A stretch of 64,000 bases of DNA from Raja brachyura (Eukaryota). The position numbers and the translations under genes are program-made. Position 1 is the first letter of the stretch. The number at the start of each line of letters is the position of its first letter. Under the pieces are notes generated by a model. That model saw only the letters and a list, made by a program, of their open reading frames with translations. It had not been told where the DNA came from and ran no database searches. The stretch covers positions 71,114,001 to 71,178,000 of the forward strand of contig OY740787.1 in the NCBI GenBank assembly GCA_963514005.1, written 5' to 3'. Shown here piece by piece: positions 42,461 through 52,244 of the stretch.

Positions 42461-43638
42461 CTGTAGAAAAAAGAATAAATTGAATGGTTTCTTAGAAATC
42501 AGTTAAAATATTAAGAATTAAATGTAATACAAATCTGAAACATGAAATTACAAACTTTATGCATTAGCATTTTTTACAATTACTATAAAAAATTCACTCA
42601 CCATATTTGTTCGAATAAACGCAAGACCATTTTCTGTTTAAAAGTTTCTGAGCAGGAAAAATCGCTCGTTCTTTGTTCTTTCTTCAGACTGTAGCAATTT
42701 CTTGTCAAAAATCATATTAGAATGTGTATTTTGAAAAAAGCATAAAGTGATCTCATGACAGAATAGAATTTTATTTTAAGTAAAATCTGTCTCTGTAATG
42801 AGTTGGGGACATCTAGATTATTACAAATTCTTACCTGACTTGCAAATAGCAGAATAAACGCCTTTCTGCTCCTTTTGGTAGTAGTTAATTTTTTCAGCCA
42901 GTTTGATGAGTATAGATTTTAATTTGAATACAGATAGAGATAAATTCTTTATAATTTATCATACATTGCATGAGAAGGCGTTTATTCGAACTAATACAGG
43001 TGCTAGATTAACAGTGTTATGCAAAAAAAAGCCAACACACATAAATATACTACTATCTGCAAGTCAATGTAAGTACGATTTGATTGATGTCATGTAAATA
43101 TAAGAAAATAAATGCAAAAATGTATAATATTCTAATCAACTATCAGTTAGTAAAATATTGCTTGCAATGTCTTTACGTATGATTCTTAGTGTTAAGCTCA
43201 TCAGAAACTACTAAGAACAGAACTCTGATGAAACTACAGAACCAAGAAAATAAAAGATTAATATGTACGATTTTGGGATTTAAGCACTAAACATTAAGCA
43301 CAGCCCATTCAAGCACTTTTCATTGCATCCTTCATATTCACGTATACCCACATACACCACAAGTTGTATATCAATTTTAATAATAAGCAAATCTGCACTG
43401 AAATTCAGTTTGATTATGAGCAAATAACAATGGGAAGAAGTAAAGTTGCCTGTAAAATAAATAAATGTAAAGGATTTTTATATCAAAATGAGAATTACAA
43501 TTTGACGACAAATTACATTAACACATGCAATTTCATAATGTTTCATAATGTAGCACATTATCGAGATGAGAACAAAGCAGATCGGTCAGAGGATTTTAAA
43601 TGGTATCTCGCAAATTCATCAAATAATAAAAACATTAC

Positions 43639-43689
43639 CTCTCACTTCCATTTCAATCTGTTTTTCAATTTTGTCTTGAATCTTTCTTT
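43639..43689 (-). CDS. ttn: Titin 51-bp linker exon (human exon 47 equivalent); its frame is not in the ORF track
   Basis: tttactgcag|AAAGA acceptor, GAGAG|gtaatg donor; ERKIQDKIEKQIEMEVR, similar to recalled human ILHERIEQEIEMEMK. Confidence 0.9.
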
Positions 43690-44114
43690 CTGCAGTAAAT
43701 GAAAACAAATAAAATTGAGTATAATTTCAGAAGTGCAACCACCATTGTTTTTCCAATTTGTAAATAAAAGTGCAAAAAAGAAAAATGAACTATGAAATAT
43801 GCAAAACCATACAATCATACATGCAAAATAGCAGAGGTATATCCGTTGATTGCAGCTTTCAAAATGTATCACCAAACAACTGGTTGATTGAATCACAAAG
43901 CTAATTCAGACAACCCAGGATTTTGTAAACAAAAATCTGTTTTGCTCTGTAACAAAACATTAAACATGCCTCACATGCCTAATCCATTTTAAAGTAAAAA
44001 GGAGTGCAATAATCCACAGCGACACAAGATGACTTCGCAAAGATTCTTTCCATGACTGTGCTGAGATGCATGATAGAGTCACATGGGGAAGGATCAAAGC
44101 ATGCAATTGCCAAC

Positions 44115-44630
44115 CTGTCACACTAAGTAGAGTGTTGCACGCTGTTTCTCCTGCAGAATTAACCGCTTTGCATGTATAAGCACCACTGTGACTCTGGCTG
44201 ACTTTCAGTAACTTTAAGCTGCATAGCAACCCATCATGTTTTATGGAACATATTGAAGATTCTTCAACTATGCGTTGGTTGCACAGCCAAAGAACACAAG
44301 GCGATGGTAGACCCTTTACAATGCAAAACAGCAAAACATCTTCTCCATCTTCCACAATGATTTCTGGAGGCAACTTTTCTAAGAATGCTGGTGCAATCGC
44401 TCCAATGTCTATTAATTCATCACTGGGCACCACGTCAGGATAGTAGTCTCGGCTTCTTTGCTTTTCTGTTCTAGTTGGTCGTTTGGTTGAAGTAGGTGGT
44501 GAGCTTGATTGTTTCTTTAGAACTTCTGATTTGCTATTAGATGTGATATGAGGCCTTTGTTCAATTTTAGAGATATCTGAACTGCTATCAGTGGGAATTT
44601 TAGCACCTGTTTGGGGTTTTGTTTCTTCAG
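44115..44630 (-). CDS. ttn: Additional Novex-like titin cassette exon (516 bp): S/T/P/K-rich linker plus one Ig
   Basis: ttcttgcatag|CTGAA acceptor, ACAG|gttggc donor; 172 open codons, symmetric phase 1; AEETKPQTGAKIPTDSS...APAFLEKLPPEIIVEDGED...HSGAYTCKAVNSAGETACNTLLSVT. Confidence 0.8.
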
Positions 44631-44925
44631 CTATGCAAGAATAAAATTAGGATAAATGTTAAGTGATTTAGCAATTTCAGCAAAGTAAATACTTGAAAAA
44701 TATAAAACAGCCCAAAATAATGTGTTCAATAATTCATGCAAACTAGTGTGATGAAATGTCTAGTGTTAAAGTTTGTATAAATCACTAGCTAACATCTTAA
44801 ACAAAACATATTACTGTTAAAAGGTAAATTCAGGATCTTCATAAATAGATACTAAATTAATTTTGGGTAAGAAACAATGAAGTGGATGAATCAGGATGCT
44901 GTCTTTAAATAAAATTATAAACAAC

Positions 44926-45810
44926 CACCTTCGACTGTAAGTACGGCAGTAGTCTTCATTTCTCCACCTTGATTTCTTGCAGTACAGCTATACTGTCCCT
45001 GATCTTCTATGTGCACATTGAGGATGGTGAGAGACATAACATTTCCATTCCGAGATATCTTCAGTCTTCCTGATTCTTCCAATCTTCTGTTTCTGTGACT
45101 CCATATAATCTCTGAAAAAGTTTCTTCATTAAAAGAACAGATGAACTGTGCCATCTGACCAGCTTTGACTCTGAGATCACTAAGTTGAAGTAGAATTGCA
45201 GGGACTTCAAGGCCTGGTTTAGCTGCAGCAATAGTTACTTTTGCTTTACATTTTGCCTCACCATGAGGATTCACAGCTTTGCAGTTATACACTCCGGTGT
45301 CCTCTTCATTCACGTTTTGTATAATTATCTCAGATGAAGTTAAAGCTTCAGCTTCTGTTATAGTTACAATTTTTATTCTTTTAGCTTCCACAACTTCTTG
45401 GTCTTCTTTGTACCATGTTATTTCAGGTTTTGGAATTGCTAGAATTTGACATTTTAGCGAAGTTGTTTCGCCTAACATAACTGTGATGTTTTCCATATCT
45501 TGTAGGAACTTTGGTGCAACTTGAGATCCACTTCTGATTGCTTCAGTCTTGCTAACTTTTTGAGATTCTCCCCAGCTTTCAGAAGAAACTGTCTTGGTGG
45601 ATGAAGTCATGGAGATACTTTCAAACATCTGAACATTGTACGAATGTTCTTGTTGTAAACTGACTTCCTCTGTATAGTTCTTTGTATGCTTTAAGGTCAT
45701 AGGACACTCCATATGCATTTCTGATACTTCAAAAGTCTTTGAAGAGATGGATTCCGCTACAGCTTTTCCAGAAGTTATGCTCTGACTATCTATGCTTTGC
45801 ACTTTGTAAT
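44926..45810 (-). CDS. ttn: Titin Novex-2-like cassette exon: unique sequence plus two Ig domains
   Basis: tcag|ATTAC acceptor (in-frame alternative AG gives start 45801); donor after GAAGGTG at 44926 (alternative 44929). VQSIDSQS, SYNVQMFESIS and the last Ig (LLQLSDLRVKAGQMAQFIC...TTAVLTVEG) resemble recalled human Novex-2. Confidence 0.85.
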
Positions 45811-47219
45811 CTGAGTAACAAAAGACAAAATATTAATCATGATATTAAATCATGACTGACAAATTAAAGAAAGCAATAGTTTATGTTGTCCAACGGTCAA
45901 CCCAGCATGCTGGCCACATGCTTAAGAAGTGCAATTCACTTGATGAGGAATGTACCCATGTTCTCTTCCTCAAATAGCATCTGCAAATTCTTTGGAAGAA
46001 AATGGCATTCATTTGAACAAAATGATGATTTAGTTCTTCTCTTGCAAATATCCAAGATGCAGATGAATTAATGCGTCAATGTATCAAGATGAAAGGCTTT
46101 CATACTGGTGCATTAAAGTCGTCAGGTTTTTGAATAATGAGGTGACATGGTAAGAAATTGAAAGCTAATGGAAATAATCAAATGTACTCTTGCAGATACT
46201 ATATTTTCAGAATAAATATTGACCTCATATACTATGTATGTATATTGTCCAGCATGTTGCTAAGCCAATAATTATAATGTAAACATTGTTCTGAGAATTA
46301 TCAAAATAAAGTACTAGGTCTTCTCTTAGCTCTATCATATGCCCATAATGATGTCATTACGCTTTAATTTGGGAAGTATAGTAACTTTTGCCGCTGCCCC
46401 ATACTTCATTTGCCTACTCAAAATAAACTCCGTAAAGATGGACCTCTGGGCAGAGGATGCATCTAAAGGCAACCAAAATAGGACATATGTCACTAAGCCT
46501 TTGTTCAAATTTCTTCAACCTTTTTATATCTTGTAGAGGAAATCTACTTTAACTTGTTTGACAGGTGTTAATGATAGAGCCAAAATACCAACTTGAAAAA
46601 ATGTCCGGCTCTGTATGCTCTAGTTATTTTAGCTGCATTTGTAATGAACTATGAAAATTTCAGTCTTTGATATTTCAGTCTTTAATAATCTTAAAACTTA
46701 AACTAGTGCAAGAGGAGACCTAGTTTTAACTCAAGAAAATTCAAACAAAATGATTTTTAAATGTTTTATTGGTGTATATATTTACAGTTATAACATATTA
46801 AGTTGTTTTAACAAAAAAAAAATCTGCATTAGAAAACGGTATAGTCATGTTATAGTGGAATTCCAGTGTGCACAGCAGCTGGTCTCTGTTTACCTTAGAG
46901 GTGGATGGAAGAACTGGCCATGAGATGTACTACAGAAGTGGAAGCAATGTGGCTGGGTGAGTTGCTTGATGAAGTCTATGCAGTGCCCTCCATAATGTTT
47001 GGGACAAAGACCCATCATTTAATTAGTTCCCTCAGTACCCCACAATTTGAGATTTGTAATAGAAAAAAGTCACACGTGGTTAAAGTGCACATTGTCAGAT
47101 TTTATTAAAGGCCATTTTTATACTTTTTGGTTTCACCAGTTGTGTTTATACATAGTCCCCCAATTTCAGGGCACCATAATGTTTGGTACACATGGCATCA
47201 CAGGCATTTTTGTTTAATT

Positions 47220-52055: not shown

Positions 52056-52244
52056 CTTCCAGTTTTAATTCAGCAGTGCATGACACCTGTCCAGCAGAGT
52101 TGGATGCGACACATGTATATGTTCCTTCATCCTCCGGGTAGGCTTCAGCAATTTCCAATTGGTAAGTGTCTTCAAACTGAACCATCTTGAAGAATCTTGA
52201 TTGCTTGATCTCCTTGTCTTTACTGTACCAGGTGATCTTTAGAT
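52056..52244 (-). CDS. ttn: Titin exon, last proximal I-band Ig half (human exon 44 equivalent), 189 bp
   Basis: catag|ATCTA acceptor, GAAG|gtaatt donor; DLKITWYSKDKEIKQSRFFKMVQFEDTYQLEIAEAYPEDEGTYTCVASNSAGQVSCTAELKLE. Confidence 0.95.

What the first reader, a model, noticed from the sequence alone, without database searches (positions are those of the whole stretch)
44115..44630. Extra Novex-type titin exon between Novex-2 and the linker exon, with no Novex-1 at its usual position
Seen: a fully open, symmetric phase-1 516-bp exon with good splice sites, encoding ~78 aa of S/T/P/K-rich linker plus one Cys-rich Ig. Established (recalled): human order is exon 44, Novex-1, Novex-2, exon 47, with nothing between Novex-2 and 47. 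Here I found no Ig exon between 45810 and 52056, which is mostly transposons. The Ig has some resemblance to human Novex-1 (HSGAYTCKAVNSAGE vs HAGQYSCKAANSAGE). Inference: either a relocated Novex-1 or a separate Novex exon absent from mammals.
Basis: partly seen in the sequence, partly recalled or inferred. Interest (0 to 1): 0.7.

Follow-up and report, generated by a model that had tools for sequence, protein, structure and literature searches.

The report
Ancient titin exon mammals cut short
The gene for titin, the giant spring protein of muscle, holds here a spliced extra exon whose protein segment is intact in another shark, gar, bichir, a frog and birds but ends after a short stub in several mammal records, so it is likely an ancient optional spring segment that the human exon map leaves out.

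Summary
Real. 44630-44115 (-) is an open, symmetric 516-bp titin exon: 78-residue linker plus a Cys-rich I-set Ig. Contigs of 4 public runs (3 organisms, 3 studies) show Novex-2→exon joints in all four, exon→47 in one and the skip 44→47 in three. It is not a relocated Novex-1. Its Ig forms its own clade (100/99) and is 51-89% identical to orthologues in shark, gar, bichir, frog and birds, against 28-34% to Novex-1. Three bird proteins carry Novex-1, Novex-2 and this exon in a row. 'Absent from mammals' is half right: none of 10 mammalian models has the Ig, but 6 splice Novex-2 onto a 28-110-residue stub of this exon that then ends; one short, evidently spliced contig does the same. It is likely an ancestral optional I-band module; mechanics and regulation are inferred. 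The scan reported this exon before in another shark genome (e1-9045754). Unnamed in the papers searched, but the chicken titin gene paper and the elephant-shark figure were not seen and may cover it.

The parts
44115..44630 (-). The exon (exon B): 516-bp symmetric phase-1 cassette exon of titin between Novex-2 and exon 47; about 78-aa S/T/P/K-rich linker (44628-44395), then one I-set Ig (about 44394-44116) with CysB/CysF/CysG and further Cys
   Evidence: frame, splice sites; joints at both ends; orthologues, clade; Ig fold, pLDDT 65
44929..45810 (-). Novex-2 orthologue (882 bp), joined to exon B in every contig that reaches its 3' end; it carries a second Ig, also in Heptranchias, that gar, bird and mammal Novex-2 lack
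   Evidence: N2 clade 100/99; extra Ig in its own clade of 2
46239..46512 (-). Decayed Novex-1 pseudo-exon: 29 of 101 aligned positions identical to seal Novex-1, 3 frameshifts, no in-frame stop in the aligned part
   Evidence: score 53-57 for 4 of 4 Novex-1 queries, all ending at 46239; best of 30 shuffles each 40-47; 9 control Igs 32-48, none at this place; no intact copy found in the genome
44100..44105 (-). TGCATG (RBFOX-type motif) 10 nt after the donor of exon B; 4 GCATG in the 425-nt intron
43639..43689 (-). Exon 47 equivalent (51 bp); receives exon 44 (skip) or exon B
52056..52244 (-). Exon 44 equivalent (189 bp); joins Novex-2 or exon 47

Best explanation
This is a spliced, in-frame titin exon that is included together with Novex-2 or skipped together with it, and it is likely an ancestral jawed-vertebrate module that would add one cysteine-rich Ig domain and an extensible linker to the spring region of titin, while several mammal records show only a stub of it that ends translation. 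SHOWN: the transcripts 44-Novex2-B-47 and 44-47 both exist. Inclusion adds 882+516 nt = 466 aa in frame (three Igs and about 175 aa of unique sequence) at the end of the proximal Ig segment. The Ig is intact in a second shark, gar, bichir, a frog, chicken and other birds. Novex-1 has decayed in place here. INFERRED: origin before the shark/bony-fish split; Ig lost in therian mammals; inclusion promoted by RBFOX binding to the conserved TGCATG behind a non-consensus donor (GTTGGC); the linker acts as extra contour length (about 30 nm at 0.38 nm per residue, my estimate); the Ig can be redox-tuned through its CysB-CysF-CysG triad.
For:: joint 44630/44929 (GT-AG, 298 nt) in contigs of X1 and X3. 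Loose ends read Novex-2→B in X4 and X5 (the latter only 11 letters), B→47 in X4, 44→Novex-2 in X1, X3 and X4, the skip 44→47 in X1, X3 and X5, and 47→50 (N2B skipped, skeletal type) in X4 and X5; I matched them by eye to the sequences. B Ig is 51-89% identical to 10 orthologues, 28-34% to Novex-1, 24-32% to Novex-2, at most 35% to 72 other titin Igs; clade 100/99 in a tree of 72 Igs; full Ig (≥90 aa) in 13 of 34 named proteins tabulated; Novex-1, Novex-2 and B together in Pluvialis, Nyctibius and Chlamydotis. The exon encodes 172-173 aa in shark, gar and crane. Mammals: 0 of 10 models have the Ig and 6 of 10 have the stub (55-64% to the bird linker). P0259 runs through about 300 aa of proximal I-band into Novex-2 and the stub within a 2064-nt contig and ends on the same residue as the Myotis model. 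Cys conserved in alignment A3: B strand 23 of 25, E, F and G strands 25 of 25; triad concept from PMC5766482 (passages). GCATG 4 observed vs 1.07 expected, p 0.014, the highest of 150 bins; the intron read-through is GW[QH][LM]H followed by V or A in 33 of 33 proteins matched, which keeps TGCATG possible in each.
Against: All RNA evidence is contigs of runs whose RNA status is a guess by the tool (two are flagged 'probably DNA', although exon-exon joints cannot come from the gene's DNA). No tissue, strand or level can be read, and B→47 rests on one run. TGCATG alone is not enriched (2 vs 0.62, p 0.12), and the read-through set is conditioned on models that read into the intron. The tree has 92 columns and an unsettled bootstrap, so the Ig's origin is unresolved. 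No named teleost, coelacanth, lungfish, lizard, monotreme, rodent or primate protein with B was retrieved. Mammalian loss is read from protein models, not DNA, and the search scored only 7996 candidates. No protein, mechanical or redox data exist here. The fold model is moderate (pLDDT 65).
Confidence: 0.82

Rival explanations
1. The exon is a relocated Novex-1.
For: No intact Novex-1 was found in this genome (best hit 39%); the F/G-strand motif is alike.
Against: Separate clades, each 100/99; 28-34% identity; Novex-1, Novex-2 and B coexist in three bird proteins; a Novex-1 remnant sits at the usual place.
Confidence: 0.02
2. The exon works mainly as an alternative last exon: the weak donor is read through to a stop, giving a short, Novex-3-like titin.
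For: Most database models end by reading through the donor; the first read-through codons are conserved in 33 of 33 matched proteins; the window frame stays open to 43960; X4 holds contigs across the downstream intron.
Against: X4 shows B→47, and the frog and bichir proteins continue into exon 47. The read-through peptide diverges after 5-6 residues and tolerates L→M, as expected if TGCATG rather than the peptide is conserved. Models ending here are automatic fragments filed as separate genes.
Confidence: 0.1
3. The biology is as above, but the exon is already described or named, for example in the chicken titin gene paper (Granzier 2007; I recall, unverified, a chicken-specific 'Novex IV') or inside the 'Novex-I/II' boxes of the elephant-shark map.
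For: PMC12241362 lists Novex-I, II and III in elephant shark, assigned visually, and a skeletal isoform that keeps or skips a 'Novex-I segment'. PMC6469411 says Granzier 2007 found novel exons by manual annotation. RefSeq models already contain the exon under wrong names.
Against: Searches for titin with 'novex iv', 'novex-iv', 'novexiv' or 'novex4' gave 0 papers; the other Novex searches gave no such exon in what I read. PMC5852582 Table 1 treats the chicken Novex-2 to exon-47 interval as one intron.
Confidence: 0.4

Closest known systems
Titin Novex-2 (exon 46, Ig I17) and Novex-1 (exon 45, Ig I16) cassette exons
   Same: Between exons 44 and 47; unique linker plus one I-set Ig; symmetric phase 1; skipped in part of the transcripts.
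   Different: Own Ig clade; lies 3' of Novex-2; included together with Novex-2 rather than mutually exclusively; 5-7 Cys; no counterpart in the human 363-exon numbering as given in the papers read.
Elephant shark connectin 'Novex-I segment' (PMC12241362)
   Same: A block after I15 that is kept or skipped in skeletal (N2A) titin of a cartilaginous fish.
   Different: Its sequence and figure were not seen, so it is unknown whether it is Novex-1, Novex-2 or Novex-2 plus this exon.
Automatic gene models XP_067843003.1 (Heptranchias), XP_046777693.1 (chicken), XP_075611892.1 (crane)
   Same: They contain the Novex-2→B junction and the whole exon.
   Different: They are filed as separate genes ('myosin light chain kinase-like', 'myopalladin-like'), not as titin exons.
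Truncated Novex-2 transcripts 'with intron 46 retention' (PMC5852582)
   Same: [quoted passage not shown]
   Different: Explained there by intron retention; splicing onto the stub or onto exon B is not mentioned in the parts I read.

Membership tests
Novex-1 (exon 45) | Lies between exon 44 and Novex-2 | tested here: not met
   It lies 3' of the Novex-2 orthologue; the remnant at the Novex-1 place is a different sequence
Novex-1 (exon 45) | 372-390 bp exon whose Ig groups with I16 | tested here: not met
   516 bp; 28-34% identity; separate clade. The Novex-1 label rests on order, on a 125-aa = 375-nt segment and on my recall of the human motif
Novex-2 (exon 46) | Ig groups with I17 | tested here: not met
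   24-32% identity; the upstream exon 45810-44929 is the Novex-2 orthologue
Novex-type cassette exons of the proximal I-band | Located between exon 44 and the N2B exon, frame-preserving | tested here: met
Novex-type cassette exons of the proximal I-band | Unique sequence plus I-set Ig | tested here: met
   Pfam I-set on orthologues; fold search hits are titin and obscurin-like Igs, TM about 0.7
Novex-type cassette exons of the proximal I-band | Alternatively spliced, with a 44→47 skip | tested here: met
Novex-type cassette exons of the proximal I-band | Mutually exclusive use | tested here: not met
   Every upstream joint seen is Novex-2→B (4 of 4 runs); no 44→B or Novex-2→47 was seen; contigs show presence only
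Novex-type cassette exons of the proximal I-band | Expressed in heart | not testable with these tools
   The runs carry no tissue; two show 47→50, the skeletal pattern
Triad (CysB/CysF/CysG) titin Ig domains | Cys on strands B, F and G | tested here: met
   23, 25 and 25 of 25; the positions align with Cys of 3B43 domains
Triad (CysB/CysF/CysG) titin Ig domains | Disulfide formation and isomerisation under force | not testable with these tools
   Needs single-molecule pulling
RBFOX-enhanced cassette exons | Conserved (U)GCAUG in the downstream intron | tested here: inconclusive
   Motif at +10; GCATG p 0.014, TGCATG p 0.12; conservation inferred from read-through peptides; positional rule from PMC4541041 passages
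RBFOX-enhanced cassette exons | Inclusion depends on RBFOX | not testable with these tools
   Needs a minigene or knock-down

The most novel reading that the evidence does not exclude
A fourth, unnamed Novex exon is ancestral to jawed vertebrates and pairs with Novex-2. In therian mammals, perhaps humans too, its acceptor survived while its Ig died, so that Novex-2 inclusion is routed into a hidden stop exon. That gives a poison switch or a fourth short titin, and would explain why full-length Novex-2 titin is scarce and 'truncated Novex-2' RNAs are reported.
Probability: 0.3. Interest if true: 0.75.

Novelty: new member of a known kind. Interest (0 to 1): 0.52.

Why it matters
Titin maps of non-mammals are drawn from the human exon list, so a module that mammals lost is overlooked and ends up in databases as a misnamed separate gene. 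The Novex cassette turns over by lineage: this shark let Novex-1 decay and has an extra Ig in Novex-2, birds keep three exons, and therians appear to have reduced this one to a stub. Chicken offers a tractable system for the intact exon. The mammalian stub gives a cheap test in existing RNA-seq: if Novex-2 is spliced onto a stop exon in human muscle, that bears on how Novex-2 transcripts and exon-46 variants of TTN are read.

Tried and rejected
(1) Relocated Novex-1: rejected. (3) The extra Ig of shark Novex-2 as a moved Novex-1: not supported (30-35%, own clade). (4) The run search listed no holder on record as RNA; five runs were guessed RNA and four were laid (X2 and the DNA-like X6-X11 were not). 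Contig depth was not used to measure inclusion (for the record: skip 102 vs inclusion 19.5 in X1, 30 vs 5 in X3). (5) The single-sequence fold failed (pLDDT 37). (6) The ESM Atlas gave only generic I-set clusters. (7) The PDB sequence search gave generic Igs only. (8) The search of 50% representatives was swamped by multi-Ig giants; 1 of the 150 listed (P0143) was an orthologue. (9) In one search two Novex-2 domains (chicken, plover) were cut short by a script error, and one search used a wrong frame for exon 44; the first was fixed, the second. (10) The tree kept 72 of 97 domains; zebra-shark and most tandem Igs were left out. (11) Granzier 2007, Seeley 2007 and Kellermayer 2017 are not held. 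No complex prediction was run, as no binding is claimed.

Full report
OBSERVATION. The window is the minus-strand I-band part of a titin gene, from a cartilaginous fish by inference (85% identity to a Heptranchias perlo protein). 44630-44115 is a 516-bp stretch between an AG and a GT, phase 1 at both ends, with 171 open codons: 78 residues of linker (47% S/T/P/K) and one Ig with 7 Cys. The genome search found no second copy among 150 scored candidates. The flanks are exon 44 (52244-52056, 189 bp, as in all 8 species of Table 1 in PMC5852582), an 882-bp exon (45810-44929), exon 47 (43689-43639), and then Novex-3 and N2B frames.

IT IS SPLICED. Eleven public runs hold the region; none is on record as RNA and five are guessed RNA. 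Four were laid on 43560-45900 (3 organisms, 3 studies). X1 and X3 each have a contig that joins 44630 to 44929 across a 298-nt GT-AG intron. Loose ends, matched by eye, give Novex-2→B in X4 and X5, B→47 in X4, 44→Novex-2 in X1, X3 and X4, the skip 44→47 in X1, X3 and X5, and 47→50 (N2B skipped) in X4 and X5. No 44→B or Novex-2→47 joint appeared; contigs show presence, not absence. So the two exons behave as one 466-codon cassette. Tissue and level cannot be read from these data.

IT IS CONSERVED AND IS NOT NOVEX-1. Protein searches and cluster look-ups returned orthologues filed under unrelated names. Of 34 named proteins that I tabulated, 13 hold the full Ig: Heptranchias, gar, bichir, the frog Staurois, chicken and eight other birds. 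Two turtles, four more birds and a crocodile hold it in partial or chimeric models. The exon encodes 172-173 aa in shark, gar and crane. Pluvialis, Nyctibius and Chlamydotis proteins run Novex-1, Novex-2, B in that order. The labels rest on order, on size (a 125-aa = 375-nt Novex-1 segment; 194-198 aa for Novex-2; against Table 1) and on my recall of the human motifs; no human sequence was retrieved. The B Ig is 51-89% identical to 10 orthologues, 28-34% to Novex-1, 24-32% to Novex-2 and at most 35% to 72 other titin Igs. In a tree of 72 Igs (92 columns, bootstrap unsettled) B, Novex-1, Novex-2 and the extra shark Ig are four separate groups, each 100/99; deeper forks are unresolved. An alignment-based fold (pLDDT 65) matches titin and obscurin-like I-set domains.

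NOVEX-1 HAS DECAYED IN PLACE. No intact Novex-1 was found in the genome (best hit 39%). A frameshift-aware alignment places 4 of 4 Novex-1 queries at the same spot, 46512-46239 for the two full-length ones, about 430 nt before Novex-2: 29 of 101 identical, 3 frameshifts, score 53-57, against 40-47 for the best of 30 shuffles each and 32-48 for 9 control Igs, none of which aligned there. The margin is modest, but place, strand and order agree. The odd N-terminus of the Heptranchias model aligns to the same spot, which suggests that it is damaged there too.

MAMMALS. None of 10 mammalian models has the Ig. Six (bilby, elephant seal, dingo, jackal, wild dog, Myotis) join Novex-2 at the homologous junction to 28-110 residues that begin like the bird linker (55-64%) and then end. 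The other four end without it. An unnamed protein in the Myotis cluster (P0259) runs through about 300 residues of proximal I-band, Novex-2 and the stub on a 2064-nt contig and ends on the same residue as the Myotis model. Since intron 43 alone is 3.8-5 kb in mammals (Table 1), this contig must be spliced RNA (inference). Mammalian DNA was not examined, and no human, rodent or monotreme record came up.

MECHANISM. Shown: in-frame co-inclusion or skipping. Inferred: (a) extra compliance from three Igs and about 175 unique residues at the end of the proximal Ig segment, about 30 nm from B's linker by my estimate; (b) redox tuning, because Cys on strands B, E, F and G are kept in 23, 25, 25 and 25 of 25 aligned sequences and the B/F/G triad supports disulfide isomerisation in other titin Igs (PMC5766482, passages); (c) RBFOX-driven inclusion: a non-consensus donor is followed at +10 by TGCATG, the intron has 4 GCATG against 1.07 expected (p 0.014; TGCATG alone p 0.12), and 33 of 33 read-through peptides are compatible with the motif (positional rule from PMC4541041, passages).

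WHAT IS KNOWN. PMC5852582 (passages, Table 1, parts 2-3 of 5; supplement not read) compares exons 42-50 in 8 species, lists nothing between 46 and 47 in chicken, and reports truncated Novex-2 RNAs, which it ascribes to intron retention. PMC12241362 (parts 1-2 of 5, passages, supplement text; figures not seen) lists Novex-I, II and III in elephant shark and a skeletal isoform that keeps or skips a 'Novex-I segment', which may include this exon. Passages only: PMC11033294 (I16/I17 naming), PMC5874998, PMC13649281, PMC6469411, PMC7370890. Nine searches were run; the eight on Novex showed no named fourth Novex exon in what I read. Granzier 2007 on the chicken gene is not held, and I have an unverified recollection that it named a chicken-specific Novex exon, so I put prior description at about 0.4. 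The scan's note e1-9045754 reports the same exon in another shark genome. I saw it after my own tests; the lines shown do not mention the Novex-1 remnant or the mammalian stub.

VERDICT. A real, likely ancestral titin cassette exon: a new member of the Novex kind rather than a new kind of system. Interest 0.52. The mammalian stub is the part most worth following.

Noticed in passing
window 45810-44929 (-): The shark Novex-2 exon carries a second Ig (79% identical in Heptranchias) that gar, bird and mammal Novex-2 lack and that joins no other group with support.
   Followed up: partly
window 46512-46239 (-): Decayed Novex-1 pseudo-exon, although Novex-1 is reported as the best-conserved Novex exon (PMC5852582); the Heptranchias model's N-terminus aligns to the same place.
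   Followed up: yes
window 38566-38466 (-): Novex-3 is split by an apparent 101-nt GT-AG intron; the zebra shark model P0149 joins the two parts at the same place, whereas Table 1 of PMC5852582 lists Novex-3 as one exon. Not checked with RNA.
   Followed up: partly
P0259, P0253, P0189, P0192, P0205, P0227, P0228: Mammalian Novex-2 is joined to a stub of exon B that ends after 28-110 residues.
   Followed up: partly
PMC5852582 Table 1, zebrafish column: The zebrafish 'exon 45' (390 bp) has a 357-bp downstream intron, close to the 425-bp intron after exon B here; it may be mislabelled. Not testable without the sequence.
   Followed up: no
G000:C1542:15572-16603 (-): A small contig holds a 613-aa open frame with several titin-like Ig hits; not examined.
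   Followed up: no
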